From assembly GCA_965206025.1 (NCBI GenBank), contig CBDBIU010000004.1, positions 1,543,342 to 1,607,341 on the forward strand: a stretch of 64,000 nt of DNA, given 5' to 3'. The notes under the pieces are model-generated. The model did no database searches. It saw only the letters and a program-made list of their open reading frames with translations, and was not told the DNA's origin. Within the stretch, counting starts at the first letter, position 1; every line of letters begins with the position of its first letter. Origin of the DNA: Bryobacterales bacterium (GTDB lineage Bacteria; Acidobacteriota; Terriglobia; Bryobacterales; UBA6623). Below, piece after piece: positions 10,912 to 52,555 of this stretch. The translations under genes were made by a program, and so were the position numbers.

Positions 10912-10940
10912 TTGACCGCTTCCGCCCGAGCCGATATACT
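10912..10940 (+). promoter_or_regulatory. Sigma70-type promoter of the his operon
   Basis: TTGACC (10912-10917), 17-nt spacer, TATACT (10935-10940). Confidence 0.75.
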
Positions 10941-10948
10941 GGAGTTTC

Positions 10949-11011
10949 ATGCGGTTAATGCTCCATCACCGGCATAGCCACCGCCATCATGGCGGTCGTG
11001 TGCGCCGGTAG
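10949..11011 (+). CDS. hisL: His operon leader peptide [20 protein letters not shown]
   Basis: 20 codons with 6 His codons in a 9-codon stretch, located between the promoter and a terminator hairpin; too short for the ORF track. Confidence 0.85.
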
Positions 11012-11049
11012 GGGATCACAGCAACAGTACGCAGCAGTTTCCGAATCCC

Positions 11050-11086
11050 AACCCGCCGGCGAGAGCGCTGGGCGGGTTTTTTCTTT
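11050..11086 (+). terminator. Attenuator intrinsic terminator
   Basis: AACCCGCC-ggcg-agag-cgctg-GGCGGGTT stem followed by TTTTCTTT; its 5' arm (CCGGCG 11056-61) can instead pair with CGCCGG 11003-08. Confidence 0.85.
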
Positions 11087-11096
11087 GGGCACAACT

Positions 11097-11480
11097 ATGA
11101 AACTCGACTTCACCAAACTCGACGGCCTGGCGCCTGCGGTCATTCAAGACGTGGATGACGGCCGCGTGCTCATGGTCGGCTTTATGAATGAAGAGTCGTT
11201 TCGAAAGACTTGCGAAACCGGGAGGGTGACGTTCTTCAGCCGTTCCCGCAACGAACTTTGGACGAAAGGCGGCACGTCGGGCCACTACCTGCTGGTGAAA
11301 GAGATCCAGGTGGACTGCGACGAAGATACGCTGCTGATCAAGGCCGAGTCCCTGGGTCCGGGCGTTTGCCATAATGGGTTCCGAAGTTGCTTCTACCGCC
11401 GTCTGAACAACGACGAATGGGAGCAATTTGAGGATCGCGCCTACGACCCGGACAGGGTCTACAAGGCGGAAACCCGGTAG
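11097..11480 (+). CDS. hisI: Phosphoribosyl-AMP cyclohydrolase (monofunctional)
   Basis: [29 protein letters not shown]; 127 aa with no HisE domain. Confidence 0.95.
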
Positions 11481-11486
11481 TTCCCG

Positions 11487-12740
11487 ATGCTCGAAATCAC
11501 CTCCAGTACTGACAAGGCGGCCCTGAACCGGCTCTTCACTCGCCGCCGGCGGCGGCTTGGGCGCGCCGAGGCGGTCGTGGGCCCGATTCTGGAGGCGGTC
11601 CGCAAACGCGGTGACCGCGCGCTTCTCCGATACGCTCGGCAGATGGATGGCCTTACCGCGCGCGGTGTTCGCGTGCCGCCGGAGGTCTTGCGGCGGGCGG
11701 CTGCTGGTCTGCCGAAGGATTTCCGCGGGGCGCTGGTCACAGCCCGCCGGCAAATACGCCGCTACGCCGAGCTTCAGATGCCTCGCTCATGGACGAAGCG
11801 GGCGCTCCCTGGCGTGAAGCTGGGCCAACTCGTGCGGCCCATCGAGTCGGTTGCGGCCTACGTGCCGGGAGGCCGATATCCCCTGCCCTCGACCTTGATG
11901 ATGACGGTCGTGCCGGCTCAGGTGGTCGGGGTGAAAGTCATTTCCGCCGCCTCGCCCCAGCCGACGAACGAAACGTTGGGCGCGGCGGGCTTGCTCGGGG
12001 TCGAAAACTTTTTCCACATGGGAGGCGCGCAGGCGATTGCCGCCTTCGCCTTCGGGACCGAGACTGTGCCCCGCGCGCAGCGCATTGTCGGTCCCGGAAA
12101 CATCTACGTCGCGGCAGCAAAAAAGTTGCTCGCCGGGGATGTCGGCATCGATTTCGTCGCCGGGCCGACTGAGATCGTTCTCATCGCGCCCGACGGCGAC
12201 CCCCGCCTTCTGGCGGCCGACATGCTGGCGCAGGCCGAGCACGACGCCGATGCCTCGGCAATCTTGCTGACCCGCTCCAAGCGGCTGGCCGGAAGGGTCG
12301 CGGCCGAGATCAACAGGCAGCTTTCTACCTTGCCCACCCGGGCGACGGCCGCGAAGTCGATCGCCAAGAACGGCGCCATCGTGGTAACGCGAAGTATCGA
12401 TGAAGCTTTCGAAATAGCGAACCGCTTCGCCCCGGAACACCTTTGGATTCCAGAGGAATCGCTCCTCTCGAAGGTCCAAAACGCCGGCAGCGTGTTTGTC
12501 GGCGCTTGGAGTCCGGAAGCAGCGGGCGACTACGCCTCGGGACCGAACCACGTCCTGCCAACGGGCGGGGCAGCCGCGCTGCGCGGGGGGTTGTCGGTGT
12601 TCGACTACTTGAAGATTATCTCCGTGCAGCAGCTTGAGGCGGCAGGTTTGCGGCGGCTGGCGCCTTCGATTTTGACGCTGGCCCGCGCGGAAGGCCTCGA
12701 GGCCCACGCCCGCTCGATCGAGGTGCGGCTCCATGCCTAA
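11487..12740 (+). CDS. hisD: Histidinol dehydrogenase
   Basis: YVPGG, GPGN.YV..AK, AGPTE, DMLAQAEHD, APEHL, DYASGPNHVLPT. Confidence 0.97.
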   Translation: MLEITSSTDKAALNRLFTRRRRRLGRAEAVVGPILEAVRKRGDRALLRYARQMDGLTARGVRVPPEVLRRAAAGLPKDFRGALVTARRQIRRYAELQMPRSWTKRALPGVKLGQLVRPIESVAAYVPGGRYPLPSTLMMTVVPAQVVGVKVISAASPQPTNETLGAAGLLGVENFFHMGGAQAIAAFAFGTETVPRAQRIVGPGNIYVAAAKKLLAGDVGIDFVAGPTEIVLIAPDGDPRLLAADMLAQAEHDADASAILLTRSKRLAGRVAAEINRQLSTLPTRATAAKSIAKNGAIVVTRSIDEAFEIANRFAPEHLWIPEESLLSKVQNAGSVFVGAWSPEAAGDYASGPNHVLPTGGAAALRGGLSVFDYLKIISVQQLEAAGLRRLAPSILTLARAEGLEAHARSIEVRLHA

Positions 12741-13800
12741 AACGGCGTCCATTCGACGGCCTCGACCTCGTCGCGCGGTTCGACGGATGAAGCCCTACTC
12801 TCCACCGACCAGCGACCGCTACGGCAAGGTGCGCCTGGACTTCAACGAAAACACGGTGGGCTGCTCTCCCCGTGTCGCTCGGGTGCTTAAGAGCCGCGTA
12901 GGACGCGACTTTTTGGCGGTCTACCCGGAATACGAGAAGGCTCGGGAAAAGATGGCCGAATTCTTCGGCGTCAACTCGGACCGTATCTTGTTTACCAATG
13001 GGACCGACGAGGCGATTCACCTGCTGGCGAGCACGTATGTCGATGACGGCGGCGAAGTTGTGATTCCCTCGCCGACCTATGCCATGTTCCGCTTCTATGC
13101 GGAGCTCGCCGGGGCGGCGCTGCGGCTCATCCCCTATCACGAGGATCTGGCCTTCCCACTCGAAGAAATGCTTTCCGCCATCACGGCAAAGACGAGGCTG
13201 GTGCTGGTCGCCAACCCGAACAACCCTACGGCGGGGGCGATTCGCTTGAAGGAGATCGAAGCCATATTGCGCCGCGCTCGCAACGCCGCTGTGTTGATTG
13301 ACGAGGCGTATCACGAGTTCTGCGGCATTACGGCTCTCAAGCGGCTGTCGCGGTTCCCCAACCTTTTTGTGAGCCGAACATTCTCGAAGGTGTACGGGCT
13401 AGCCGGTTTGCGGATGGGCTGCCTCTTCTCGCAGGCCGAAAATATTCAATCGGTGCGCAAGGGCCAGTCGCCCTACAGTGCTAACTCGGTCGGCGTGATG
13501 TGCGCTCTGGAGGCCATCAAAGACCAGGACTACATACGTTCCTATGTCGAAGAAACATTGGAGGCCCGGGAGATGTTGTGCCGGGGGTTCGATCGGCTGG
13601 GGATTCACTACTACCCGAGTCAGGCGAACTTCGTCCTGGTGAAATTCGGGAAGAGGGCCGCGGAAGTCTGCGGCTATTTGCGGGATAAGGGTTTACTCAC
13701 TCGCGACCGCAGCCACGAAATTCCCGGGACGGTGCGCATCACCGCCGGCAAGAAATCGCAGGCCCGGAAGCTGCTGGCTTGCCTGCGAGAGGTGCTCTAG
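12733..13800 (+). CDS. hisC: Histidinol-phosphate aminotransferase
   Basis: LDFNEN, NGTDEAI, NPNNPT, IDEAY.EF, RTFSK.YGLAGLR.G. Confidence 0.95.
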   Translation: MPKTASIRRPRPRRAVRRMKPYSPPTSDRYGKVRLDFNENTVGCSPRVARVLKSRVGRDFLAVYPEYEKAREKMAEFFGVNSDRILFTNGTDEAIHLLASTYVDDGGEVVIPSPTYAMFRFYAELAGAALRLIPYHEDLAFPLEEMLSAITAKTRLVLVANPNNPTAGAIRLKEIEAILRRARNAAVLIDEAYHEFCGITALKRLSRFPNLFVSRTFSKVYGLAGLRMGCLFSQAENIQSVRKGQSPYSANSVGVMCALEAIKDQDYIRSYVEETLEAREMLCRGFDRLGIHYYPSQANFVLVKFGKRAAEVCGYLRDKGLLTRDRSHEIPGTVRITAGKKSQARKLLACLREVL

Positions 13801-13815
13801 CCTGGACTTCTTCCG

Positions 13816-13975
13816 GCCGAGCGAATCGGAGCCGCGAACGCAAGTGAGCGGTCAGCGGCCCAATATGTCGTTACGGATAGTTGACCTGTCACTGACGTTC
13901 CAGGCTCAGTTGCCTGCTCTCGCGGACCCGCGCGACGAGCGAGACAGAGCCTCCAGTGCAAGCAAGCGGTCCCCG
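13816..13975. repeat. REP-like pair in the hisC-hisB spacer
   Basis: GCCGAGCGAATCGGAGCCGCGAACGCAAGTGAGCGG (13816-13851) and a degenerate ACAGAGCCTCCAGTGCAAGCAAGCGG near 13945. Confidence 0.65.
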
Positions 13976-14055
13976 GCCTGCCTGACTGAGCGGCGCGGCG
14001 GGAAGTGGATCACCAGCTTATGTAGCGGCCTTTGATCCGCCAGTCTGGAAACGCG

Positions 14056-14652
14056 ATGAGAAAAGCGACCGTCGAGCGCACTACGAAAGAGACGCGAATC
14101 CGCGCCCGGCTCGCGATCGAGGGCAAGGGACGCTACGAGGTGTCCACCGGCATTCGTTTCTTCGATCATATGCTGGAGTTGTTTGCCAAACACGGCGGAT
14201 TCGACCTGACGATCCAAGCCGAAGGGGATCTGGACGTCGATCAGCACCACACCGTGGAAGACGTAGGAATCGTGCTGGGACAGTGTTTTTCCCAAGCCCT
14301 GGGCAAGCGCGTCGGCATCAACCGGGCCGGCTATTTCGTCATGCCCATGGATGAATCGTTGGCTGTCGTGGCCGTCGACCTCGGGGGCCGTCCGGCGCTG
14401 GTCTACCACGCGCCGACGCGCTTTCGAATGGTAGGCGATTTACAAGTCGAGCTGCTGCACGATTTCTTCGATGGCTTCGTGCACCACTGCGGAGCAAATC
14501 TCCACGCCCGCTTGTTGTATGGCCGCTCGAACCACCACAAGATCGAAGCGATCTTCAAGTGTTTCGCACGGGCGATGCGATATGCGTGCTCGAAAGACGC
14601 ACGACTGAAGAATCAACTGCCCAGCACCAAAGGTTTGCTGGAGGGAACGTGA
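14056..14652 (+). CDS. hisB: Imidazoleglycerol-phosphate dehydratase (monofunctional)
   Basis: [34 protein letters not shown]; start taken at ATG 14056. Confidence 0.97.
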
Positions 14653-14698
14653 AGCACGCCGGGGTTAGAGACAAGATGAACCGCACCGCGAAGGCCGT

Positions 14699-15301
14699 AT
14701 GATTGCCATTTTTGACTACGGCGCCGGGAACCTGCGTTCGGTAGAGAATACCTTGGCTGCCATCGGCACGCGCTATGAACTGGTTCGCGACGCCGAGGGT
14801 TTGGGGCGGGCCGAGAAGATCATCCTTCCGGGTGTGGGGCACTTCGGGCAACTGATCCGTTCGCTGGATTCATTAGGCGTCCGGGAGACATTTCGGGAGC
14901 GGATCGCGGCGGGCGTCCCCTTCCTGGGCATCTGTCTCGGCTTGCAGGCGCTGTTTGAGAGCAGCGAAGAGGCCCCGGAACTGGCCGGCTTGGGCGTCTA
15001 CCCGGGCACGATTCGTCGCTTTCCGGCGGGGACGCGGGTGCCCCATATGGGCTGGAACACCCTAGAGTTGCAGGGTCGGCCGCGCCTGTTCAAAGGCCTT
15101 TCGAGCGACCCTTATGTTTATTTCGCCCACAGCTACTACGTGCCGGATACCGTTGCCGGGGAGCGTGCGGCGGCCTGGTGTGAATACGGAGTAAGATACG
15201 CCGCCGCGCTGGAAGCCGATAACGTTTTCGGGGTGCAGTTCCATCCGGAAAAATCAAGCGCGATCGGCCGGCAAGTTGTTCGGAACTTCCTAGAGTGCTA
15301 G
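14699..15301 (+). CDS. hisH: Imidazole glycerol phosphate synthase glutaminase subunit
   Basis: DYGAGNL.SV, LPGVG.F, GICLGLQ, PHMGWN, YFAHSY, QFHPEKS. Confidence 0.97.
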
Positions 15302-16074
15302 CCAAGAGAATCATCCCGTGTCTTGATGTCACCGAAGGCCGCGTCGTCAAAGGCGTCAACTTCGTCAACCTGCGCGACGCCGGCGATCCCGTCGAGCTGG
15401 CCGAGGCGTACAACCGGGATGGCGCGGACGAGCTGGTCTTCTTGGACATCACTGCCTCGAGTGATCGCCGGGATACGATGGTCGATGTTGTCGAGCGGAC
15501 CGCCCGGAAGGTTTTCATTCCGTTGACCGTAGGCGGTGGTATTCGCGCGGTGCCCGACGCTCGAAAGCTGCTCGTCGTAGGCGCCGACAAAGTGTCGGTT
15601 AACACCGCCGCCGTGGAACGTCCCGAGCTAATTACCGAACTTTCGGAGGAATTCGGCTCGCAGGCCGTTGTGTTGGCGATCGACGCCCGCCGCGGTTCGC
15701 CGGGCAAGTGGAACGTTTTCACCTACGGAGGCCGCAAGGACACCGGTCTGGATGCGATCGAGTGGGCCAAGCGCGGCGAGTCGCTGGGAGCCGGCGAGAT
15801 CCTGCTCACCTCGATGGACTGCGACGGTACGCAGTCCGGTTTCGATTGCGAGTTGACCCGACAGATTTCGCGCAACACGAACATCCCCATTATCGCGAGC
15901 GGAGGGGGCGGCCAACCCGAAGATTTTGTGGAGGTGCTGACCGACGGGAAGGCTGATGCGGCATTGGCCGCCTCGATTTTCCACTACGGCACATATATCG
16001 TTAACGGCCTCAAAGGGATTCTCGACGAGCACGGCATTCCGGTGCGGATTGCCCCAGCCTCGCAGACGGACTGA
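15295..16074 (+). CDS. hisF: Imidazole glycerol phosphate synthase cyclase subunit
   Basis: [53 protein letters not shown]. Confidence 0.98.
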
Positions 16075-16103
16075 TCGGTTTCCCGCCGGCGTAGGAATAT
16101 CTC

Positions 16104-16592
16104 GTGCCCCATCTTTTTTACCACCTCGACTTCACGGTCTCGGTCTTCGTCGTTTATCGAGATAAGGTTCTGCTGGCCGATCACATTCAGCTGGACAAAT
16201 GGTTGCCTTTGGGAGGGCACATCGAGCCCGGGGAGGACCCCGAACAAGCAGCGCTACGCGAAGTGCGGGAGGAGAGCGGGCTCCGAATCGAGCTTTGCGG
16301 CGACCGCCCGCCGCGGGAATTTCCCGGGACTAGGACGCTGGTGGCGCCGGTCTTCCTGGACGTTCACGACATTTCCGGCGAGCATCGCCACATCGGCATG
16401 ATTTACTACGCGCGGGCCGCAAGCGACGACACGGTCCTTTCCGTTCAAGAGCATCGTCAGATCCGGTGGTTCGACGCCGAGGAGCTTAAGAATCCAAAAT
16501 GGAAGATCCCGGACGCGATCCAGTTCTACGCGGGAGACGCCATCCGCCGCTTGCGGCCCGTGGAACATGTCCCCAACAGGCCAACAGAGTAG
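16104..16592 (+). CDS. Nudix hydrolase embedded in the his operon
   Basis: Canonical Nudix box GGHIEPGEDPEQAALREVREESGL. Confidence 0.92.
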   Translation: MPHLFYHLDFTVSVFVVYRDKVLLADHIQLDKWLPLGGHIEPGEDPEQAALREVREESGLRIELCGDRPPREFPGTRTLVAPVFLDVHDISGEHRHIGMIYYARAASDDTVLSVQEHRQIRWFDAEELKNPKWKIPDAIQFYAGDAIRRLRPVEHVPNRPTE

Positions 16593-16665
16593 TCGACGTG
16601 GGAGCAGGCGCGAGCGAGCCAATATGCGACGGCCTTTGGGGTCACATCCCGGCGAGGGAAAACCT

Positions 16666-17388
16666 ATGATCATCCCCTGTATAGACCTGATGGGAGGCAA
16701 AGTCGTCCAGCTCGTCCAGGGCCGGGAAAAGGCTCTGGAGGGGGACGAACCGCTGGTGATGCTCGCAAAGTTCTCCGGCTTCCCGGTGATTCAAGTCATC
16801 GATTTGGACGCCGCCATGGACCAAGGTTCAAACGACGCCGTGGTCCGGGAGCTGGTTTCGCGGGCCCAGACGCGCGTGGGTGGTGGCGTGCGTACGGTCG
16901 AACGCGCGCGGCGCTTGGTTGAGGCTGGGGCATCGAGGGTAATCGTCGGCACGGCGGCCTTTGGCTCCGAGGGTGTCAACGAGCCCCTGCTTCAGCAATT
17001 CGGGACGTCGATCGGAGCTGAGCGGGTTATCGTGGCGCTCGACTCCAGAGACGGTCGCATTGTCGTCAGAGGCTGGCGGCAGTCGACCAAGCTTTCGGCG
17101 GAAGAGATGATTCACGGGTTGGAGCCCTACTGCGGAGGGTTTTTGTGCACCTATGTCGACAAGGAAGGGATGTTGGAAGGCACGGACCTGGATTGGTTTC
17201 GCCGTCTGCGCGCGGCTACGGACCACGAAATCACCGCCGCGGGTGGAATCACTACCTTGGAAGAAGTCCGCGAGCTTGCCCGGCTCAATATCCACGCAGC
17301 GCTGGGCATGGCCATCTACACCGGCAGACTCGATTTGGCCGCGCTGGCAACGATCCAAAGGGATCTGGGCGGCCCGCCACCCGAGTGA
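16666..17388 (+). CDS. hisA: ProFAR isomerase
   Basis: MIIPCIDL.GGKVVQL.QG, VIDLDAA, VGGGVR, TYVDKEGM..G, AAGGIT; start ATG 16666. Confidence 0.93.
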   Translation: MIIPCIDLMGGKVVQLVQGREKALEGDEPLVMLAKFSGFPVIQVIDLDAAMDQGSNDAVVRELVSRAQTRVGGGVRTVERARRLVEAGASRVIVGTAAFGSEGVNEPLLQQFGTSIGAERVIVALDSRDGRIVVRGWRQSTKLSAEEMIHGLEPYCGGFLCTYVDKEGMLEGTDLDWFRRLRAATDHEITAAGGITTLEEVRELARLNIHAALGMAIYTGRLDLAALATIQRDLGGPPPE

Positions 17389-18786
17389 CGACCGGCGAAT
17401 AGGTCGCGCCCGGACGCGGCAAACCCTCGCCTGGTCGAGGTTTTCGAAGCAATCGCTCATTCGGGAGTCCAAGCTGCGATATCCTCTGGTAGAGCCCCGT
17501 CCGGCTCCGCCGTGAATGATTTCGATCCGTCGGCACCCGCAAACTCGCCACACGGCCTGAGGGCAGTTGCCATGATTTCTGTCGAGCCTCCTCATTTGAG
17601 CGATCATGATCTGCGTCTTTTGGCGGAAGGCGCCCACTACCGAAGTTTTTGGAAACTCGGCGCGCACCTATCGGAACTAAACGGCAAACTAGGCGCCCGG
17701 TTCGCGGTTTGGGCGCCCGGTGCGAAACGAGTTTCGGTTTTCGGCGATTTCAACGGCTGGAATCGCGGTTCCGACCGCATGAAACTGCGCGCCGAAGCCG
17801 GCGTCTGGGAGCTTTTTGTGCCCGATGTCGGACAGGGCGACCTTTACAAGTTCCGTGTCCTTTCCCGGTTCGACGGTCATCGGGCCGACAAGAGCGATCC
17901 CTGCGCTTTCGCCAGTGAGACGTCGCCCCAAGCAGCGTCGAAGGTGTGGGATCTCACCGGCTACCAGTGGGGCGATGAAGACTGGATGAGCATCCGGCGG
18001 CTGCACAATTCCCCTCGATCCGCGATTTCGATCTATGAAGTGCAGCTAGGCTCTTGGATGCGCGTCCCCGAGGAAGACAACAGGTCGTTGAGCTACCGCG
18101 AGATCGCCCCGAAATTGGCGGACTACGTCGAGACGATGGGGTTCACCCATGTCGAACTGCTGCCTGTCAGCGAACATCCGCTCGACGCTCCTTGGGGCTA
18201 CCCGACCACAAGTTACTTCGCCCCGACCTCTCGCTTTGGGACGCCGCAGGATTTCATGTATTTGATCGACACGCTGCATCGCCGCGGAATCGGTGTGATT
18301 CTCGACTGGGCGCCCGCCCACTTCCCCGACGACGAGCAAGGGCTGAGGTTTTTCGACGGTACGCACCTTTACGAACACCCCGATCCGCGCCCCGGGACGG
18401 CGACCGAACCGGAAGAGCGGGTTTTCAACTACGGCCGGCGTGAAGTCAGCAATTTCCTTATCAGCAACGCTCTTTTCTGGTGCGACAAATACCACGTGGA
18501 TGGTCTGCGGGTGGACGCCGTGGCGGCGATACTCTACTTCGACCGCGGCCTCGGGGGTGATGGCGAGACGCCGAGCCGACGCGGCGGCAGGAAAAACATC
18601 GAGGGGATCGACTTTCTGCGGCGCTTCAACGAGGTGCTCCGCGCGGAGTACCCCGACGTGATGACCATAGCCGAGGAGTCCTCCGCTTGGCCGATGGTTT
18701 CCCGGCCGACCTCTTCGGGAGGATTGGGCTTTGGGTTCAAGTGGAACATGGGCTGGATGAACGACATCTTGGCCTATATGTCAGAA

Positions 18787-20115
18787 CAGTGCTGTCCGGG
18801 GAAAGTTGCGCCAACGGACGGTAAGTCTCTACCGCTCAATGTCTTATGGCCTGTTTTGCCCGGGAACGATTTGAAATCACGAGGCCGCAAATGGCCGCCT
18901 GAGCGGAGCATCCCGACGCGGCACAATGGGGGATGAACCTTGGCCGTACGGTTTTCTCCCAACTGATCGAGCACCTGCCGAGCAAAGAGTTTCACAAATG
19001 TGTATGGCGCTACCGCGGCGATTCCTATCTGAAAAGTTTCTCCTGCTGGGATCAGTTTCTTTCGATGGCATTCGCCCAGCTGACCTATCGGGAAAGCCTC
19101 CGCGACATCGAGACGTGCCTGCGTTCGATGCACGGCAAACTCTACCATATGGGATTCGGCGGCAGGGTAGCGCGCTCGACACTGGCCGATGCGAACGAGT
19201 CGCGCGACTGGCGGATCTACGCGGACTTCGCGCAGGTCTTGATTGGCATGGCACGGCCGTTATATGCCCACGACCCGATCGGTGTGGACTTGGACCAGAC
19301 TCTGTACGCTCTCGACTCGACAACAATCGACCTCTGCCTGTCGCTGTTTCCGTGGGCCAGATTCCGCCAGCACAAGGCCGCCGTGAAGATGCACACGCTG
19401 CTGGATCTGCACGGCAATATTCCCACGTTTATCAGCATTACTGCAGGCAAAGTGCAGGACGTCAACATCCTGGATGAATTTCTTCCCGAGGCCGGCGCGT
19501 TCTACGTCATGGATCGGGGTTATGTCGATTTTCGGCGCCTCTTCGTGTTCACGCTCTGTTCGGCCTTCTTCGTGGTGCGAACCAAAAAGAACGTTTTGCT
19601 GCAGCGTCGCTACTCCCACCCGGTGGATAGGAGCACGGGCCTGCGATCCGATCACACCGTTATTTTGACCCCCTTCAACTCCGCCCAAGTGTACCCGGAC
19701 CCCCTACGGCGGGTGAGTTATTTCGATGCCGAAAGCAACAAGCGGTTGAAATTCCTGACCAATAACTTCACCCTGCCGGCACTGACCATCGCCCACATCT
19801 ACAAATCGCGCTGGCAGGTGGAACTCTTCTTCAAGTGGATCAAGCAACATCTGCGAATCAAGTCGTTTTACGGCACCAGCGAGAACGCCGTCAAGACGCA
19901 GATCTGGATCGCTGTCTCGATTTACGTGCTCATCGCCATGGTCCGGAAACGCCTCGGGCTGGAAGCGAGTCTCTACCAGATTCTACAGATTCTCAGCGTT
20001 ACGCTATTCGAAAAAATGCCCATTTTACAGGCACTCCAGCCATCCGACTCCCAAAACGGATCCCCCTATGACCCCAACCAATTGATTCTATTCGACTTTT
20101 AACCGGACAGCAGTG
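18787..20115 (+). mobile_element. IS4-family insertion sequence, 1329 bp
   Basis: TIRs CAGTGCTGTCCGG / CCGGACAGCAGTG; 9-bp TSD ATGTCAGAA at 18778-18786 and 20116-20124. Confidence 0.97.
18933..20102 (+). CDS. IS4-family transposase (DUF4372 + DDE_Tnp_1-like)
   Basis: F.QL...LP, SLRDIE, LDSTTIDL, MDRGY.D, Y..RWQVELFFKWIKQ. Confidence 0.93.
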   Translation: MNLGRTVFSQLIEHLPSKEFHKCVWRYRGDSYLKSFSCWDQFLSMAFAQLTYRESLRDIETCLRSMHGKLYHMGFGGRVARSTLADANESRDWRIYADFAQVLIGMARPLYAHDPIGVDLDQTLYALDSTTIDLCLSLFPWARFRQHKAAVKMHTLLDLHGNIPTFISITAGKVQDVNILDEFLPEAGAFYVMDRGYVDFRRLFVFTLCSAFFVVRTKKNVLLQRRYSHPVDRSTGLRSDHTVILTPFNSAQVYPDPLRRVSYFDAESNKRLKFLTNNFTLPALTIAHIYKSRWQVELFFKWIKQHLRIKSFYGTSENAVKTQIWIAVSIYVLIAMVRKRLGLEASLYQILQILSVTLFEKMPILQALQPSDSQNGSPYDPNQLILFDF

Positions 20116-21052
20116 ATGTCAGAAGACCCTACCGGCCGCCAGCAACACCATGACAAGGTCACCTTCAGCATGCTTTACGCCCTGAGCGAGAACTTTGTTC
20201 TACCTCTGCCCCACCATGGGGTCGTCGATGGCAAAGGTTCGCTCATCGCCAAGATGCCCGGCGACGATGGACAGAAACTCGCCAACCTGAGGCTTCTCTA
20301 TGGGTATATGTACGGCCACAGCGGGAAGAAGCTCTTGTTCATGGGAGGTGAGTTCGGCCAGCGATCGGAATGGAGCTGCGAGGACTGTCTCGACTGGGCC
20401 GCGCTCGACGACAAGGCGCATGAAGGCCTGCAGCGCTGGGTCCGCGATCTAAACACTTTTTATCGCGGCCAACCCGCGCTTTTCGAGCGCGACTTCGAGC
20501 AGGATGGGTTCGAGTGGATCGATTGCCACGATCGCCAATCGGGCGTGCTGAGTCTCCTGCGGCGAGGCAAGGACGCTAAGGACCCCATTGTCTTTGTCTG
20601 CAATTTTACGCCTGCGTCTCGCTACTACTACCGGGTCGGAGTTCCCTTTGGCGGATACTGGCAAGAAGTGCTCAACAGTGACTCCTCCGCCTACGGCGGA
20701 AGCAACCAGGGCAATGCCGGCGGGATAGCGGCGGCTGACGAGCCGGTCCACGGGCGCCCTTGTTCGCTGAGTATCACGCTACCACCGTGGGCCGTCGTGG
20801 TCTTCCGGCGGGTGCCCTGATGGCTCGGTGGCGGGCTTGGCCGCCGTTTGAGATATTGGGGGGCGCCGTTGATCGCGCCCGCTTGCCGACAAAACTGTGC
20901 GCTGGGCGATGTTCACAAACTGTTGCCGCGAGCCGCCGTCGCCAGCCTTGCGCCTCATCCACCGCGGGCCGCGGCGAGAAATGCGGCCTTCTGGCTGGAC
21001 GCGTTTTTCGACATGTTAGACTGATGGTCGAATTCCGCCGTCGCTCACCCCA

Positions 21053-23008
21053 TTGGGACCGCCACAAATGAACCGGCCTGGCAACCCCGAACCACGAGGG
21101 TTCCGGTCGCTCACGCTGGGCTTTTTCAAAGAAACCAAGTTTCTCGCGAAGTGCACGCTGATAACGGCCGTGTGGGCGGGCGGTCTTTACAGCCAGGGGC
21201 CAACGCCGCCATCAGCCGAAAGGCCTCCCGCCGCGGACGCGAGCAGTAAGCAAGCCGCCGCTGTTTCACCCGAAACCGCGATATTCACCGACACGGCCGA
21301 GGAAGCGGGCATCGACTTCGTCCATTTCAACGGCATGTCGGGCGAATACTACTACTGTGAGCCGGTGGGTTCGGGCGCGGCGATGTTCGACTACGACAAT
21401 GACGGCGATTTGGACATCTATATGGTTCAGGGCAATATGTTGGGACAGGGGAAGACGCCGGCCGATGCTCTGTTCCCGCCTCGCGGTCCATTGCCCCCCA
21501 AGGACCGTCTCTATCGCAACGAATCGGTGGGCGAAAACGGCGGCTCAAGCGAATTGCGATTCACCGATGTCACCGACAAAAGCGGCATCGACGCCCGCGG
21601 ATACGGGATGGGCGTGGCCGCCGGCGACTGGAATGACGACGGCTGGATCGATCTCTATGTGACGAATTTCGGCCCCAATCAGATCTGGCGGAACAACGGG
21701 GACGGCACGTTCAGCGACACCACCCGCGAGACCGGCGTCGACGACTACCGATGGAGCATTAGCGCTGCCTTTCTGGACTTCAACCGCGACGGGTGGCTGG
21801 ATCTCTACGTCGGCAACTATGTGGACTTCAGCTTCACAAATCGCAAGAAATGTTTTTCCGAAGGCGGCAGGAGGGACTACTGTGGTCCACGCGGCTTCAA
21901 CCCGGTGCCGGAACGTCTGTTTCGCAACCGCGGCGACGGAACGTTTGAGGACGTCTCGGCCAAGTCGCGGATTGCCGCCGAGCACAACGGATCGTTAGGC
22001 GTCGTGGCCGCGGACTTCAACGCGGATGGGTGGGCGGATTTGTACGTGACCAATGACGGGCGTGCGAATCATTTGTGGATGAACCAGGGAAACGGCTCGT
22101 TCAAGAACGAGGCCATGCTGGCGGGCTGCGCTCTAAACGCGGACGGCAATCCCGAGGCCAGCATGGGGGTCGATGCCGGCGATTACGACAATGACGGCGA
22201 CGAAGATCTCTTCATGACGCACCTTAACGGGGAAAAGAACACTCTCTACGCCAACGACGGGAACGGCTGGTTTGACGATCTCTCCTACCGCACTCGATTG
22301 GGAGCGCCGAGCTTGCCCTACACAGCTTTTGGAATGGCTTTTTTCGACTACGACAACGACGGCTGGCTGGACATCCTGGCGGTCAATGGGGAGGTGAAAA
22401 CGCTCGAGGCCCTCGCCAGAGCCAAGGACCCCTACCCGCTGCACCAGCCCAACCAGCTTTTTCGCAATCTAGCTAACGGGCGGTTCGAGGAGGTGACGCA
22501 CAGGGCTGGTTCGGTGTTCGAGTTGTCTGAAGTCAGCCGTGGAGCGGCTTTTGGCGACGTCGATAATGACGGTGACACGGATGTGTTGGTGGTAAACAAC
22601 AACGGCCGTGCGCGGCTGCTAATCAATCACGTCGGCAACCGCAACCACTGGCTGGGCCTTCGGCTGGTGGACAAGACGGGAAAGCGCGACATGCTGGGAA
22701 CGCGCGTTGCCGTGATCCGACCGAAGGGGTCGGAGCTATGGCGAAGGGCGCGAGCCGACGGCAGCTACGCTTCCGCCAATGATCCTCGGGTGTTGGTCGG
22801 GCTGGGCGATTCGACCGATGTTACCGCCGTTCGTGCACACTGGCCCAGCGGTCAAGTCGAGGAGTGGACCGACGTCTCCGTCGACCATTACACGACTTTG
22901 CGAGAGGGGAGTGGAAAAGGTTGTGCGGTAGTTCTAGGCTCGGTTTCCTACTCGCGCAGCGCCCCTAGCCCGCATTTCTCACCACCTGACGGTCGAAGCA
23001 CACGATAG
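21053..23008 (+). CDS. FG-GAP/ASPIC-UnbV (CRTAC1-like) secreted protein #1
   Basis: Repeated D.DNDG..D motifs, SRGAAFGDVDNDGD.D, GSY.S..D.R..VGLG, V.WPSG; start uncertain; the last 13 aa are read from MITE copy 3. Confidence 0.9.
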   Translation: MGPPQMNRPGNPEPRGFRSLTLGFFKETKFLAKCTLITAVWAGGLYSQGPTPPSAERPPAADASSKQAAAVSPETAIFTDTAEEAGIDFVHFNGMSGEYYYCEPVGSGAAMFDYDNDGDLDIYMVQGNMLGQGKTPADALFPPRGPLPPKDRLYRNESVGENGGSSELRFTDVTDKSGIDARGYGMGVAAGDWNDDGWIDLYVTNFGPNQIWRNNGDGTFSDTTRETGVDDYRWSISAAFLDFNRDGWLDLYVGNYVDFSFTNRKKCFSEGGRRDYCGPRGFNPVPERLFRNRGDGTFEDVSAKSRIAAEHNGSLGVVAADFNADGWADLYVTNDGRANHLWMNQGNGSFKNEAMLAGCALNADGNPEASMGVDAGDYDNDGDEDLFMTHLNGEKNTLYANDGNGWFDDLSYRTRLGAPSLPYTAFGMAFFDYDNDGWLDILAVNGEVKTLEALARAKDPYPLHQPNQLFRNLANGRFEEVTHRAGSVFELSEVSRGAAFGDVDNDGDTDVLVVNNNGRARLLINHVGNRNHWLGLRLVDKTGKRDMLGTRVAVIRPKGSELWRRARADGSYASANDPRVLVGLGDSTDVTAVRAHWPSGQVEEWTDVSVDHYTTLREGSGKGCAVVLGSVSYSRSAPSPHFSPPDGRSTR

Positions 23009-26495: not shown

Positions 26496-27368
26496 TCATC
26501 CCGCGACCTCCTGCGGCGTCTGCTGGTTGAGCAACCACTGCTCATACTCGTTGGGCGGCCGGTAGCCCAGCGCCGAGTGCAGCCGTTTTTCGTTGTAGAC
26601 GCGCTCGATGAACTCCTCGATGCGCTGCTGCGCCTCGGCGTAATGCTCGTACTCGAACAGGTAGACTTCTTCGTACTTGAGCGTCTTGATGAACGACTCC
26701 GCTTTGGCATTGTCGTTGGGGCTCGCCTTGCGGCTCATGCTGATGGCGATGCCGTGCTCGGCCAACAGCGCCGTATGGTCTCCGGCCGCGTATTGCGAGC
26801 CGCGATCGGAATGATGCACCAGTGCAGGCCCCACGTCGCGCTTCGCCAAGGCCATCCGCAAAGCTCCGAGCGTCAGCTCCGTCCCCAGCGTGCGGCCCAG
26901 TGACCAGCCGATGCAGCGCCGCGAGTGGCCGTCCAACAACACCGCCAGGTAAACGAACTCGCGCAGCAGCCGAATATAGGTGATATCGGCCACCCACAGC
27001 TGGTTCAGCCCCGTCAGCTGGAGCTCGGGAACCAGGTTCGGATAGACCGTCAGCCCGTGCCGCGAATCGGTGGTACGCACGCGTTGGACCCGCCGCAGGC
27101 ACAGCAGATTGTCTTCCCGCATGAGGCGCTCTACGCGCTTGCGATTGATCGTCCAACCACGCCGCCGCAGCTCGGCGGTGATGCGCCGCGAGCCGTAGCC
27201 AGGCATCTCCAAGGCGATGCGCTGGATGGCATCGCGCAACTCGCTGTCGTCGCGGCTCCTCGCCTGCTGATGCGCCCGGTAGTAGGCGGCGCGATTCACC
27301 TGCAAGGCGCGGCACATCGCCGCCAACGATAGCGCAGTGGTTGGTTCCTGCTCGATCACCGCGATCAT
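26496..27368 (-). CDS. IS3 OrfB DDE transposase
   Basis: YG.RRI, W.ADITY, HSDRGSQY, DNA.AESF.KTLK.E, YN..RLHSALGY. Confidence 0.95.
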   Translation of the reverse strand: MIAVIEQEPTTALSLAAMCRALQVNRAAYYRAHQQARSRDDSELRDAIQRIALEMPGYGSRRITAELRRRGWTINRKRVERLMREDNLLCLRRVQRVRTTDSRHGLTVYPNLVPELQLTGLNQLWVADITYIRLLREFVYLAVLLDGHSRRCIGWSLGRTLGTELTLGALRMALAKRDVGPALVHHSDRGSQYAAGDHTALLAEHGIAISMSRKASPNDNAKAESFIKTLKYEEVYLFEYEHYAEAQQRIEEFIERVYNEKRLHSALGYRPPNEYEQWLLNQQTPQEVAG

Positions 27369-27685
27369 CTTTTGCTTGTAGGCGCGACGCTCGGCAGGCG
27401 TTGTTCCTCGAGCCGCGCCAAGGCCTTTTTTAACAGCGCGTTCTCCATGGTCAGCCGGCCGACCATGCGCTCTAGCTCTCCGATGCGAGCTTCTTCGTCC
27501 GAGCCGTTTCTGTTGCCGCGGAACGCTCGCTCAGGATCCTGCCGCAGCTGTTTACGCCACTTTGTCAGCAGCGTGGGATGGACTTCATAGCGCCGAGCGA
27601 CTGCGGCCGTCGAAGCTCCCAACTCGACCTGCCGTACCGCCCGTAACTTGAACTCCACAGAAAACTTCCGTCTTGACAACGCCAT
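27365..27685 (-). CDS. IS3 OrfA (HTH)
   Basis: RRKFS.EFK..AV, VARRY.V....L.KW, LE..VGRLTMEN.LLKKA; ATGA overlap with orfB in the -1 frame. Confidence 0.9.
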   Translation of the reverse strand: MALSRRKFSVEFKLRAVRQVELGASTAAVARRYEVHPTLLTKWRKQLRQDPERAFRGNRNGSDEEARIGELERMVGRLTMENALLKKALARLEEQRLPSVAPTSKR

Positions 27686-39723: not shown

Positions 39724-39791
39724 GAAGATATCTCGGGGTTTGAGGCAGACCAGTCGTTCGTCTGCCAACTCATTCGGAAATAGGAGTTCAC

Positions 39792-41132
39792 ATGCGACGA
39801 ATCGGATGTTTGCCATGCACCGAATCGACCGTACGTCGGCGGGATTTTGTTCGCGTGGGCGGCTTGAGTCTTTTGGGCATCAATCTAGCCCAATTCCTAC
39901 AGCTTCGGAGTGCGATGGCCGCGAGCGACGGACCCCGAACCAAGGCCAAAGCCGAGGCCTGCATCCTGCTCTGGCTGGAGGGAGGCCCAAGCCACGTCGA
40001 CACCTGGGACCCCAAATCAAACAGCAATTTCCGGCCCATTTCAACGAACGTTCCAGGAATACAGATCTCCGAGTTGTTGCCCCGGATGGCCGAGCAGATG
40101 GACAAGATCTCCATCGTTCGCTCCATCCACACGGAGGAAGACAATCACCCACAGGGAACCTATTATGCACTGACGGGCCATCGGCCCAATGCGGCCATGC
40201 AGTTTCCCAGTCTCGGCTCGATCATCTCCAAGGAAATGGCAACCAGGAACAACATCCCTCGCCATGTTCTAACTCCACAGTGGGCAAAGGAGAAGCAGTA
40301 TGAAAAGTACTTTGGGAGCGCATTCATTGGACCCCAATACAGTCCCATGATCGTCCCCGATCCGAGCAAAGAGGATTTTGAGGTGGCGGACCTCAGTCTG
40401 CCTAAAGGCTTTTCTGTAGGGCGAATTGAGAACCGGCGAGCGTTTATGCATGCCTGGGACCGGTTTCATCGAGATAGGGTCGAAATTGCAGAGTATTCGA
40501 ATATGGATACGTTTACCGAGCAAGCTCTGACAATGATTTTGTCGCCCGAGGTAAGGGACGCTTTCGATGTTTCCAAGGAGTCCGATAGAACAAGGGATCT
40601 CTACGGCCGCGACGGTTTCGGACAGAGTGTTTTGCTGGCAAGACGTCTGGTGGAGGCCGGAAGCCGTTTCGTGACGGCAGCGGGCTTTCCTTTCAATGCG
40701 TGGGATTCACACGGCGAGAACGACAAGAATCATCGAGACAAACTGGTTCCACCCCTTGACCGGACTCTCGCGGCGCTGTTGACGGACTTGGACGAGCGGG
40801 GCCTGCTGGAATCGACTGTGGTAATCGCCATGGGCGAATTCGGACGGACGCCCCATCTCAACCCGGCCTTCGGAAGAGATCACTGGCCGCACTGCTGGTC
40901 CCTCGTGCTGGGAGGCGGCGGCATTCAAGGCGGAAAAGTTGTCGGTGCGAGCGACGAGCGAGGGGCTTACGTGGCCGAAGAGACGACCTCCATGGGCGAT
41001 GTGTTCGCGACCATCTACAAAGCATTCGGCATCGACTGGAAAAAAACCTACATGTCCCCGATTGGCCGCCCCATCAAGATTGCCAACTCCATTGAAGATG
41101 AGACCGGCGTGCCGATTCAGGCATTGGTCTAA
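39792..41132 (+). CDS. DUF1501 domain protein (Tat-like RR motif)
   Basis: RRRDF.RVG, WLEGGPSH.DTWDPK, CLLARRL-like SVLLARRLVEAG.RFV, WDSH, GEFGRTP, GRDHWP. Confidence 0.92.
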   Translation: MRRIGCLPCTESTVRRRDFVRVGGLSLLGINLAQFLQLRSAMAASDGPRTKAKAEACILLWLEGGPSHVDTWDPKSNSNFRPISTNVPGIQISELLPRMAEQMDKISIVRSIHTEEDNHPQGTYYALTGHRPNAAMQFPSLGSIISKEMATRNNIPRHVLTPQWAKEKQYEKYFGSAFIGPQYSPMIVPDPSKEDFEVADLSLPKGFSVGRIENRRAFMHAWDRFHRDRVEIAEYSNMDTFTEQALTMILSPEVRDAFDVSKESDRTRDLYGRDGFGQSVLLARRLVEAGSRFVTAAGFPFNAWDSHGENDKNHRDKLVPPLDRTLAALLTDLDERGLLESTVVIAMGEFGRTPHLNPAFGRDHWPHCWSLVLGGGGIQGGKVVGASDERGAYVAEETTSMGDVFATIYKAFGIDWKKTYMSPIGRPIKIANSIEDETGVPIQALV

Positions 41133-41445
41133 GAACTGACCGCGGGGACTTCAGCTTCCAGGCTCTGGCGGAGACCAACCCGCCGAACAGCCGGCCGGTA
41201 GAAGTGCTTCGTCTCGGGTAGTGGCTTAGTCTCGGGACCGAGGGCGGGCGGGAGACTCGCTCCTCACAGGGGAGATCTTTGACGTTGACACTGGCCCCGC
41301 CCGCGAATCGGTGGAAATGAGCCGGATCCCGCCGGCGCCAAGGGCGCACAAAAGGCTGCCGGGGTACAACTCGCGATTTCCGATTGAAGGGTTGAAGGGC
41401 CCATCGGGCCTGGGCATGCCAACGTCAGCGGTAGAATGGGCCCAT

Positions 41446-52466: not shown

Positions 52467-52555
52467 AGTACGTTGAGCACGGCGAGCAAGCGCAACGCAG
52501 TAATGGCGGGCCTATTGCGTGCTTCGACCGTCAGGTGGTGAGAAATGCGGGCTAG
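52467..52555. mobile_element. MITE family A, copy 5 (right half)
   Basis: AGTACGTTGAGCACGGCGAGCAAGCGC...GTGGTGAGAAATGCGGGCTAG. Confidence 0.8.

What the first reader, a model, noticed from the sequence alone, without database searches (positions are those of the whole stretch)
11097..17388. Nudix hydrolase inside a his operon that lacks hisE: candidate non-orthologous PR-ATP pyrophosphohydrolase
Seen: the operon order is hisI-D-C-B-H-F-Nudix-A. HisI is a 127-aa monofunctional cyclohydrolase, the window has no hisE, and the 162-aa Nudix gene (intact GX5EX7REUXEEXGU box) sits co-oriented between hisF and hisA with short spacers. Established: HisE converts phosphoribosyl-ATP to phosphoribosyl-AMP + PPi, the alpha-beta pyrophosphatase chemistry typical of Nudix enzymes, but canonical HisE is an unrelated all-alpha (MazG-like) fold. 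Inference: this Nudix may replace HisE; alternatively it is a house-cleaning enzyme or an operon passenger.
Basis: partly seen in the sequence, partly recalled or inferred. Interest (0 to 1): 0.75.

Follow-up and report, generated by a model that had tools for sequence, protein, structure and literature searches.

The report
Nudix gene inside a histidine operon
A small, uncharacterised Nudix pyrophosphatase gene sits between hisF and hisA in the histidine operon of a group of soil and aquatic Acidobacteria (Bryobacterales); it may supply the pathway's missing second step, but I could not show that the normal gene for that step (hisE) is absent from the genome.

Summary
Window 11097-17388 encodes hisI (PRA-CH only), hisD, hisC, hisB (IGPD only), hisH, hisF, a 162-aa Nudix protein with an intact Nudix box, and hisA. 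No HisE, HisG or MazG domain was found in the 64 kb.

Evidence that links the Nudix gene to histidine synthesis:
- Every homologue at 57% identity or more (about 20 loci, Bryobacterales) lies in hisF-Nudix-hisA, often with overlapping stop and start codons.
- Metatranscriptome contigs span both gene junctions.
- A His-rich leader peptide and terminator (an attenuator) precede the operon.
- The closest characterised homologue (PDB 3F6A, Q0TS82) cleaves purine NTPs at the alpha-beta bond, which is HisE chemistry.

Evidence against:
- Related his operons without the Nudix gene also lack hisE, so its absence from the operon proves little.
- The nearest sister clade (Verrucomicrobiota, about 54% identity) keeps nearly all conserved residues and was not his-linked in any of 72 loci.
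- In one MAG an IS element splits the Nudix box.
- I could not check the whole genome for hisE or a MazG-type substitute, for which there is a precedent (Desulfovibrio DVU1186).

Verdict: this is a plausible and apparently unpublished candidate for an analogous PR-ATP pyrophosphohydrolase (probability about 0.4). It is not demonstrated.

The parts
10912..10940 (+). Promoter-like site (TTGACC-17-TATACT) upstream of the his leader
   Evidence: This is a consensus match only (2 found against 1.2 expected in shuffles); its position fits the leader.
10949..11011 (+). His-rich leader peptide [23 protein letters not shown] (6 His codons within 9 positions)
   Evidence: Sequence read. Similar His-rich mini-ORFs occur upstream of hisI in L001-L004, L035, L039, L045, L050-L052, L125 and L126.
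11052..11082 (+). Terminator hairpin (CCCGCCGGCGAGAGCGCTGGGCGGG) plus a U-run, 15 nt before the hisI start; with the leader ORF it forms a putative attenuator
   Evidence: The hairpin core CCCGCCGG...CGGGC/T followed by a T-run is conserved in nearly all related loci. No Rfam family matched.
11097..11480 (+). hisI, monofunctional phosphoribosyl-AMP cyclohydrolase (127 aa)
   Evidence: PF01502 E=4e-32; NF000768 145.9 bits against a cut-off of 126. All 120 best homologues are PRA-CH only.
11487..12740 (+). hisD, histidinol dehydrogenase
   Evidence: PF00815 E=6e-142; TIGR00069 480 bits.
12733..13800 (+). hisC, histidinol-phosphate aminotransferase
   Evidence: TIGR01141 284.7 bits against a cut-off of 276.6.
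13801..14031 (.). hisC-hisB spacer carrying a short dispersed repeat; in relatives a HAD phosphatase gene occupies this position
   Evidence: Repeat copies at window 55836-55933 and 606-643. Spike of RNA contig depth. HAD gene between hisC and hisB in L035, L038, L124, L125 and L126.
14032..14652 (+). hisB, imidazoleglycerol-phosphate dehydratase only (no phosphatase domain)
   Evidence: PF00475 E=2e-61; NF002111 259.5 bits against a cut-off of 231. The gene caller starts it at 14056.
14699..15301 (+). hisH, glutamine amidotransferase subunit of IGP synthase
   Evidence: TIGR01855 215 bits.
15295..16074 (+). hisF, cyclase subunit of IGP synthase
   Evidence: TIGR00735 377 bits.
16104..16592 (+). 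Nudix hydrolase of an uncharacterised His-rich subfamily (162 aa); candidate PR-ATP pyrophosphohydrolase
   Evidence: PF00293 E=2.7e-18. AF2 model pLDDT 89.6. Best PDB match 3F6A, E=3e-26, TM 0.78/0.84. hisF-Nudix-hisA synteny in about 20 loci. RNA contigs across both junctions.
16215..16283 (+). Nudix box G38-X5-E-X7-REVREESGL60 (catalytic metal-binding motif)
   Evidence: Translation. Invariant in 90 homologues. This is the site of the IS insertion in the L005 allele.
16666..17388 (+). hisA, ProFAR isomerase (240 aa from MIIPCID)
   Evidence: PF00977 E=6e-50. TIGR00007 scores 179.6 bits, below its cut-off of 228.95. It is 84-91% identical to the hisA genes of L002-L005.

Best explanation
The 162-aa protein is a Mg2+-dependent Nudix nucleoside-triphosphate pyrophosphohydrolase recruited into histidine biosynthesis in one Bryobacterales lineage. 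It is made from the same histidine-attenuated transcript as hisI-D-C-B-H-F and hisA.

Proposed reaction: it cleaves the alpha-beta pyrophosphate bond of N1-(5-phosphoribosyl)-ATP to give PR-AMP and PPi (EC 3.6.1.31). PR-AMP is then taken by the monofunctional HisI. On this reading it is an analogue of HisE with an unrelated fold.

Shown here: the gene, its intact catalytic motif, its fold, its conserved position, its co-transcription, and its membership in a family whose nearest characterised member cleaves purine NTPs at the alpha-beta bond.

Inferred only: the substrate (PR-ATP), and that the enzyme is needed because no other PR-ATP pyrophosphatase is present.
For: 1. Position. All homologues at 57% identity or more lie between hisF and hisA. 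This covers five GTDB Bryobacterales genomes, the window's own contig, the contexts of P0038, P0020 and P0053, and 10 of 10 JGI metagenome loci. Most flanking genes outside the operon differ between these loci.
2. Tight coupling. Nudix stop and hisA start overlap in L035 and L039, and hisF overlaps Nudix in L039. In the window the spacers are 29 and 73 nt, with SD-like sequences and no terminator between the genes.
3. Expression. Metatranscriptome contigs cover the gene at depths like its neighbours. They span the hisF/Nudix junction (16051-16147) and the Nudix/hisA junction (16509-16684, 100% identical).
4. Regulation. A His-rich leader peptide and terminator precede the operon and are conserved in relatives.
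5. Every other gene in the operon is a his enzyme. In relatives with a HAD gene (a likely histidinol-phosphate phosphatase), only HisG and HisE are unaccounted for, and Nudix chemistry fits HisE only.
6. HisI is monofunctional in all 120 best homologues. No PRA-PH domain was found in the window or in any of about 120 related loci.
7. The closest characterised relative, Q0TS82_CLOP1 (PDB 3F6A; 38% identity, E=3e-26), hydrolyses purine NTPs mainly at the alpha-beta bond. Its kcat/Km is only about 1e4 M-1 s-1, so its true substrate is unknown (PMC5158307).
8. Non-canonical PR-ATP diphosphatases already exist: the MazG-family protein DVU1186 (PMC5764234).
Against: 1. I could not show that hisE, or a MazG-type substitute, is absent from the genome. 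Only 64 kb plus 20-kb flanks of relatives were searchable.
2. Related operons without the Nudix gene also lack hisE. Type B is hisI-hisG-D-C-HAD-B-H-F-A. Type C is hisI-D-C-HAD-B-H-F followed by acyl-CoA dehydrogenase genes. The HisE activity is therefore supplied from outside the operon in this group.
3. The nearest sister clade (49-57% identity, Verrucomicrobiota) is not his-linked in any of 72 loci. It has its own conserved context, korA-korB-Zn_ribbon-Nudix-MFS.
4. That sister clade shares 51 positions conserved at 90% or more, including all the conserved His, Asp, Glu, Tyr and Trp residues. Only about 10 positions are clade-specific. This suggests one common activity that need not concern histidine.
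5. In MAG CBDFJA01 (L005) an IS element interrupts the Nudix box.
6. No fusion with a his domain was found among ten longer (multi-domain-length) relatives picked from the 150 best representatives.
Confidence: 0.4

Rival explanations
1. Operon passenger. The protein is a general house-cleaning pyrophosphohydrolase for non-canonical purine NTPs, with the same job as its Verrucomicrobial and clostridial relatives. It landed between hisF and hisA in one Bryobacterales ancestor, possibly by horizontal transfer, and has stayed there by inertia. PR-ATP hydrolysis is done by an unlinked HisE or MazG-type enzyme.
For: The sister clade shares 51 conserved positions and is never his-linked. 3F6A/Q0TS82 comes from C. 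perfringens and acts on GTP analogues. Operon types B and C show that the HisE activity is encoded elsewhere in relatives. An IS-disrupted allele exists. In type C genomes hisF is not followed by the Nudix gene, yet a matching contig length (371,259 bp, shared by P0221 and P0044) suggests the gene is kept elsewhere on the same contig.
Against: The position is strictly kept in about 20 loci, while other parts of the operon vary (HAD present or absent, hisG present or absent, IS elements and inserts). Start and stop codons overlap with hisF and hisA. A house-cleaning enzyme has no evident reason to be under histidine attenuation.
Confidence: 0.35
2. Accessory enzyme of the pathway rather than a core step. 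It might remove a by-product or side product made when the pathway runs. Examples are PR-ADP formed when HisG uses ADP, ZTP formed from the AICAR released by HisF, or a regulatory nucleotide such as (p)ppGpp. A separate HisE would carry out the main reaction.
For: The operon position, co-transcription and histidine attenuation are the same as for the main hypothesis. The many conserved His and Arg residues are compatible with a polyphosphorylated ligand; that is inference only. Damage-pre-empting Nudix enzymes in vitamin pathways are a known precedent (Tnr3/Nudix in thiamin, cited in PMC4921024).
Against: There is no direct evidence for any of these substrates. The sister clade has the same residues outside any his context. 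That HisG can use ADP, and that ZTP forms from AICAR, rest on my own knowledge and not on a tool result.
Confidence: 0.15
3. Non-functional or decaying gene, a remnant kept only because it lies inside an essential operon.
For: One IS-disrupted allele. Mobile elements are frequent around and inside these operons.
Against: The ORF is intact and the Nudix box invariant in 90 homologues. There are 31 invariant columns and about 66% mean identity within the clade. The model is confident and the gene is transcribed.
Confidence: 0.03

Closest known systems
HisE / PRA-PH domain (phosphoribosyl-ATP pyrophosphatase, PF01503; e.g. PDB 1Y6X, 2A7W; C-terminal half of E. coli HisIE)
   Same: The proposed reaction (PR-ATP to PR-AMP + PPi, alpha-beta cleavage, Mg2+-dependent); a place in a his operon next to a cyclohydrolase-only HisI.
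   Different: Unrelated fold: HisE is an all-alpha MazG-like bundle, whereas this protein is an alpha/beta/alpha Nudix sandwich. There is no sequence match to PF01503 or to the HisIE C-terminal half. The activity is not shown here.
DVU1186 / Dde_2453 MazG-family PR-ATP diphosphatase of Desulfovibrio (Price et al. 2018, PMC5764234)
   Same: A precedent that bacteria without a recognisable hisE use another NTP pyrophosphatase for step 2; it was found by genetics and context.
   Different: DVU1186 still belongs to the all-alpha superfamily of HisE, is not in the his operon, and has genetic proof (an auxotrophic mutant rescued by histidine). The Nudix protein has context evidence only.
Q0TS82_CLOP1 (PDB 3F6A), Clostridium perfringens Nudix NTP pyrophosphohydrolase (Nguyen et al. 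2016, PMC5158307)
   Same: The closest solved and assayed relative: E=3e-26, 38% identity, TM 0.78/0.84. It shares the GGH-Nudix box, H27, H94, H96, Y101 and E116. It cleaves purine NTPs at the alpha-beta bond to release PPi.
   Different: It lacks D9, W33, D86, H88 and H117 of the Bryobacterales/Verrucomicrobia clade (alignment). Its best library substrate is 3'-dGTP, at only 1.6e4 M-1 s-1, and its physiological substrate is unknown. It has no known his context.
Verrucomicrobiota (Pedosphaera-type) Nudix clade in the korA-korB-Zn_ribbon-Nudix-MFS context
   Same: About 54% identity; 51 positions conserved in both clades, including every conserved His, Asp, Glu, Tyr and Trp residue. The biochemical activity is probably the same.
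   Different: A different phylum and no his linkage in any of 72 loci. About 10 clade-specific substitutions (Y6E, G43D, F102W, F123C, F141W and others).
MutT / MTH1-type 8-oxo-(d)GTPases
   Same: Nudix fold, and hydrolysis of a modified purine NTP to NMP + PPi.
   Different: Scores are far below the family cut-offs: TIGR00586 23 bits against 98, NF008044 27 bits against 148. The JGI labels 'MutT' and 'YjhB' are generic COG names.

Membership tests
Nudix hydrolase superfamily (PF00293) | Nudix box GX5EX7REUXEEXGU with the catalytic Glu residues | tested here: met
   G38...E44...R52 E53 V R E56 E57 S G59 L60. These positions are invariant in 90 homologues.
Nudix hydrolase superfamily (PF00293) | Pfam score above the gathering threshold | tested here: met
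   66.7 bits against a cut-off of 21.1, E=2.7e-18.
Nudix hydrolase superfamily (PF00293) | Alpha/beta/alpha sandwich fold with the Nudix helix | tested here: met
   AF2 model with pLDDT 89.6 and pTM 0.85; helix 46-58 carries the box. 528 PDB Nudix matches at E<=1e-3.
HisE / PRA-PH (PF01503, TIGR03188) | Sequence membership in the all-alpha MazG-like family | tested here: not met
   No PF01503 or NCBIfam HisE match. A HisE HMM finds nothing in the window. The predicted fold is Nudix.
HisE / PRA-PH (functional class EC 3.6.1.31) | Hydrolysis of PR-ATP to PR-AMP + PPi; required for histidine prototrophy | not testable with these tools
   Needs an enzyme assay or genetics. Only context evidence is available.
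HisE replacement (non-orthologous displacement) | Canonical hisE/hisIE and MazG-type substitutes absent from genomes that carry the Nudix gene | not testable with these tools
   Only the 64-kb window and 20-kb flanks could be scanned; none was found there.
HisE replacement (non-orthologous displacement) | Orthologues stay linked to his genes | tested here: inconclusive
   Met within the clade at 57% identity or more (about 20 of 20 loci). Not met for the sister clade at 49-57% identity (none of 72 loci). Type C genomes have hisF without the Nudix gene.
3F6A / Q0TS82-like purine NTP pyrophosphohydrolases | Significant full-length sequence and structural similarity | tested here: met
   phmmer E=3.1e-26 over residues 9-150. 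Foldseek E=1.4e-15, TM 0.78/0.84, rmsd 2.5.
3F6A / Q0TS82-like purine NTP pyrophosphohydrolases | Alpha-beta cleavage of purine NTPs | not testable with these tools
   Shown for Q0TS82 only.
MutT, NudC, RppH, NudB and other named Nudix equivalogs (NCBIfam) | Score at or above the curated cut-off | tested here: not met
   The best is NF001299 at 30.8 bits against 158; all 12 hits are far below their cut-offs and cover little beyond the Nudix box.
Leader-peptide transcription attenuator (his-leader type) | Short ORF with a run of His codons, followed by an intrinsic terminator before the first gene | tested here: met
   ORF 10949-11011 with 6 His in 9 codons; hairpin 11052-11076 plus U-run. Conserved in 12 or more related loci.
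Leader-peptide transcription attenuator (his-leader type) | Alternative anti-terminator pairing; match to Rfam His_leader (RF00514) | tested here: not met
   No Rfam match at E<=0.1. The alternative pairing was not analysed. Fold z-score is only -2.1.

The most novel reading that the evidence does not exclude
This His-rich Nudix clade is the sole PR-ATP pyrophosphohydrolase of Nudix-bearing Bryobacterales, and perhaps also of the Pedosphaera-type Verrucomicrobiota that carry the near-identical unlinked clade. It would be a third, structurally unrelated solution for EC 3.6.1.31, after HisE and the MazG-type DVU1186. It would also fill a 'missing hisE' gap that makes automated tools call these abundant soil bacteria histidine auxotrophs.
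Probability: 0.3. Interest if true: 0.7.

Novelty: new member of a known kind. Interest (0 to 1): 0.5.

Why it matters
If the Nudix protein does hydrolyse PR-ATP:
- It would be a clear case of non-orthologous displacement in one of the best-studied biosynthetic pathways.
- It would give a physiological substrate to a widespread Nudix subfamily whose only assayed member has no convincing substrate.
- It would correct genome-based auxotrophy predictions for Bryobacterales, and possibly for Verrucomicrobiota, which are common in soil and water.

If it does not, the case is a useful warning: a tightly embedded, co-regulated operon gene can still be a passenger.

Independently of this, the conserved His-codon leader and terminator show classical attenuation control of a his operon in Acidobacteriota. 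I found no report of this.

Tried and rejected
- Whole-genome test for hisE. There was no way to fetch the rest of the genome. The single genome-contig scan went on the Nudix query. The three protein-database searches went on Nudix, HisI and the sister clade. A HisE query would have returned only close relatives of whichever seed I used, so I judged it nearly useless and did not run it.
- Contig-length 'fingerprints' to co-locate proteins worked only for HisI/Nudix pairs.
- Two encoding-contig look-ups were wasted on window ORFs whose start codons differ from the called genes. As a result I could not see where the Nudix gene lies in type C genomes.
- Rosetta-stone search: ten longer relatives showed only tandem Nudix domains or one radical-SAM fusion, and no his domain.
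- Rfam and tRNA scans of the operon found nothing.
- The RNA spike in the hisC-hisB spacer is explained by a dispersed repeat, not shown to be an sRNA.
- Histidinol-phosphate phosphatase as the Nudix function was rejected: the chemistry is wrong, and the Nudix gene coexists with a HAD phosphatase gene in relatives' operons.
- Literature searches for Nudix with PR-ATP or hisE found no prior claim.

Full report
**What is there.** Window 11097-17388 carries eight co-oriented genes. By Pfam and NCBIfam they are:
- hisI: 127 aa, PRA-CH only; it aligns to positions 9-113 of the 208-position HisIE model.
- hisD and hisC.
- hisB: IGPD only.
- hisH and hisF.
- A 162-aa Nudix protein: PF00293, E=2.7e-18; no NCBIfam equivalog comes near its cut-off.
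- hisA: best start at 16666, 240 aa.

The Nudix box G38-X5-E44-X7-REVREESGL60 (16215-16283) is intact. The spacers are 29 nt (hisF to Nudix, with an AGGA Shine-Dalgarno) and 73 nt (Nudix to hisA), and no terminator-like site lies between these genes.

No HisE, HisG or MazG domain was found in the 64 kb. I checked this by tblastn, by a small HisE HMM over all six-frame ORFs, and by Pfam scans of 30 further window ORFs: the large ones and most mid-sized ones outside the operon. About a dozen ORFs of 73-91 aa and a few larger ones were not scanned with Pfam.

One addition: hisG and a histidinol-phosphate phosphatase are also absent from the operon.

**Organism.** The nearest genomes are MAGs labelled Bryobacterales (Acidobacteriota), with Nudix proteins 80-91% identical. 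The identical Nudix protein is on ENA ERZ25071029 contig_14.

**Conservation of the arrangement.**
- In L001-L005 the same gene order is kept.
- More distant homologues were looked up with their flanks: P0038 (66%), P0020 (67%) and P0053 (62%). All show hisI-D-C-(HAD)-B-H-F-Nudix-A. Flanking genes outside the operon mostly differ, although L035 and the window both have jag and mnmE upstream.
- In L035 and L039 the Nudix stop overlaps the hisA start.
- A profile scan of JGI metagenomes returned 80 loci. All 10 with 57% identity or more are flanked by hisF, and by hisA where the contig reaches that far. None of the 70 with 49-57% identity has any his gene nearby. L042 and L043 belong to the same unlinked group.

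**The sister clade.**
- The unlinked group is Verrucomicrobiota: names include Pedosphaera sp. and Verrucomicrobiae.
- It is very conserved, with mean pairwise identity of 81%.
- About 20 loci share their own context: 2-oxoacid:ferredoxin oxidoreductase alpha and beta subunits, a Zn_ribbon_8 protein, the Nudix gene, and an MFS transporter.
- Fifty-one positions are at least 90% conserved with the same residue in both clades. They include H3, D9, T11, H27, W33, G37-G38-H39, the Nudix box, D86, H88, H94, H96, Y101, E116, H117, R121, W122 and Y142.
- Only about ten positions are clade-specific.
- The two clades therefore very probably share one biochemical activity.

**Operons without the Nudix gene.** All 120 best relatives of the window's HisI are monofunctional. 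Four of them were looked up:
- Two contigs carry hisI-hisG-hisD-hisC-HAD-hisB-hisH-hisF-hisA, with hisF directly followed by hisA. They have no Nudix gene and no hisE.
- Two large genomes carry hisI-D-C-HAD-B-H-F followed by acyl-CoA dehydrogenase genes.

So hisE is absent from the operon in this group whether or not the Nudix gene is present. In the nine-gene operon, the HisE step is the only one missing. This removes most of the weight of 'no hisE in the window'.

One further hint comes from contig lengths. A HisI 90% identical to that of L124 and a his-type Nudix (P0044) both have a longest contig of 371,259 bp. This suggests the type C lineage keeps the Nudix gene elsewhere on the same contig. 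I could not look at its neighbours there.

**Expression and regulation.**
- Metatranscriptome contigs from related strains cover the whole operon.
- One contig spans the hisF/Nudix junction (16051-16147). One 100%-identical contig spans the Nudix/hisA junction (16509-16684).
- Depth over the Nudix gene (3-11) is similar to that of its neighbours. Contamination of the RNA libraries with DNA cannot be excluded.
- Upstream of hisI there is a promoter-like site (10912-10940). It is followed by a 20-codon [23 protein letters not shown] (10949-11011), and a GC-rich hairpin with a U-run (11052-11082).
- His-rich mini-ORFs and the same hairpin core recur upstream of hisI in at least 12 related loci.
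- This is the anatomy of a leader-peptide attenuator. Whatever the Nudix protein does, its synthesis is tied to histidyl-tRNA supply.

**Structure and closest characterised relative.**
- The AlphaFold2 model is confident (pLDDT 89.6) and has a canonical Nudix fold.
- The best PDB match by sequence and by fold is 3F6A: E=3e-26, 38% identity, TM 0.78/0.84.
- 3F6A is Q0TS82_CLOP1. Against a 74-compound library it acted only on guanine NTPs. Its best substrate was 3'-dGTP at 1.6e4 M-1 s-1, cleaved mainly at the alpha-beta bond. The authors concluded that its physiological substrate is still unknown (PMC5158307).
- The family therefore performs the right type of reaction (purine NTP to NMP + PPi) on an unidentified, probably non-canonical, NTP.
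- 3F6A lacks several residues that are invariant in the Bryobacterales and Verrucomicrobia clades (D9, W33, D86, H88, H117).

**Precedent and literature.**
- No paper in the library links a Nudix enzyme to PR-ATP hydrolysis or to hisE.
- Price et al. 2018 showed that Desulfovibrio uses a MazG-family protein (DVU1186) for this step. Non-canonical HisE enzymes therefore exist.
- The same result means that an unlinked MazG-type enzyme is a concrete rival in Bryobacterales.

**Counter-evidence from mobile elements.**
- In MAG CBDFJA01 (L005) a 1.3-kb IS element with a 389-aa transposase is inserted inside the Nudix box.
- A 92%-identical copy of this IS splits the glgB-like gene in the window at about 18.8-20.1 kb. 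It is absent from the otherwise matching contig L034.
- The element is therefore active. The disrupted allele may be recent or deleterious, but it does show that loss of the gene can be sampled in nature.

**Weighing.**
- For a role in histidine synthesis: strict and tight operon embedding across a clade, co-transcription, histidine attenuation, fitting chemistry, monofunctional HisI, and the fact that every other operon gene is a his enzyme.
- Against: the unverified absence of hisE or a MazG-type gene; relatives that lack both the Nudix gene and hisE in the operon; a sister clade in another phylum with the same conserved residues and no his link; and one disrupted allele.
- I estimate about 0.5 that a canonical or MazG-type enzyme is absent from the genome. 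If it is absent, I put about 0.7 on the Nudix protein being the PR-ATP pyrophosphatase. If it is present, about 0.1. That gives roughly 0.4 overall.
- The main rival, a passenger house-cleaning NTP pyrophosphatase, gets about 0.35. An accessory or sanitising role in the pathway gets about 0.15.

**Novelty.**
- Demonstrated: a new, uncharacterised member of the Nudix NTP-pyrophosphohydrolase kind in a previously unreported genomic association.
- If the main hypothesis holds, it would be a third unrelated enzyme family for EC 3.6.1.31.
- The decisive tests are simple: whole-genome HMM searches, an in-vitro PR-ATP assay, and E. coli complementation.

Noticed in passing
window 10912-11096: A classical-looking his attenuator: a promoter-like site, a 20-codon leader ORF with 6 His codons in 9 ([20 protein letters not shown], 10949-11011), and a GC-rich hairpin with a U-run (11052-11082) just before hisI. 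His-rich mini-ORFs and the same hairpin core occur upstream of hisI in L001-L004, L035, L039, L045, L050-L052, L125 and L126. There was no Rfam match, and I found no paper reporting this for Acidobacteria.
   Followed up: partly
window 13801-14031 (also 55836-55933 and 606-643): The hisC-hisB spacer holds a short dispersed repeat. Metatranscriptome contig depth there is 5-20 times that of the his genes, with many loose ends. It could be a MITE/REP-like element or a small RNA. No Rfam or tRNA hit.
   Followed up: partly
L005 8585-10402 (MAG CBDFJA01 contig_4): A 1.3-kb IS element (389-aa DDE transposase, minus strand) is inserted inside the Nudix box of the Nudix gene. It leaves two halves, of 52 aa and 124 aa.
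   Followed up: yes
window 17512-20820: A glgB-like branching-enzyme gene is split. The N-terminal part (CBM_48 and the start of the alpha-amylase domain) is at 17512-18936 and the C-terminal part (Alpha-amylase_C) at 20113-20820. Between them lies an IS about 92% identical to the one in L005 (transposase 18933-20102). The otherwise matching contig L034 lacks this IS, so the insertion is polymorphic.
   Followed up: partly
window 50413-51983 and 59985-61555: Two 100%-identical 1,571-bp copies of an IS with a 414-aa rve-domain integrase. A further IS3-type element (HTH_Tnp_1 plus rve) lies at 26496-27685. The window is rich in mobile elements.
   Followed up: partly
L035, L038, L124, L125, L126 (between hisC and hisB): Relatives carry a 218-238-aa HAD-family hydrolase gene between hisC and hisB, a likely histidinol-phosphate phosphatase. 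The window's operon, like L039's, has none (L001-L005 were not checked for it), so the phosphatase of the window's genome is unidentified.
   Followed up: no
L125 10381-11250 and the P0272 contig: Some related operons include a long-form hisG (289 aa) that overlaps the end of hisI. This gives a nine-gene operon that lacks only the HisE step. The window-type operon has lost hisG from this position.
   Followed up: partly
L001 10486-11700: In MAG CAXWPI01 no hisA follows the Nudix gene. Instead there are frame-shifted fragments that resemble a group II intron reverse transcriptase; I judged this from the ORF translations only.
   Followed up: no
L043, L057, L071, L093, L116 and about 15 other loci: The Verrucomicrobial sister clade has its own conserved neighbourhood: 2-oxoacid:ferredoxin oxidoreductase alpha and beta subunits, an acidic Zn_ribbon_8 protein, the Nudix gene, and an MFS transporter. 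Its function is unknown.
   Followed up: partly
window 11097-17388 (sequencing runs): The operon sequence is held at 90-95% of its sampled 31-mers by at least seven runs from several studies with coded organism labels, and partly by runs labelled seawater or marine metagenome. This strain may therefore be aquatic or host-associated rather than a soil organism.
   Followed up: no
window 37090-41132: A PSCyt2/PSD1 (DUF1549/DUF1553) protein is followed by a DUF1501 protein, among several FG-GAP/ASPIC repeat proteins (21053-23008, 41311-43791, 52545-54296). This gene set has no known function.
   Followed up: no
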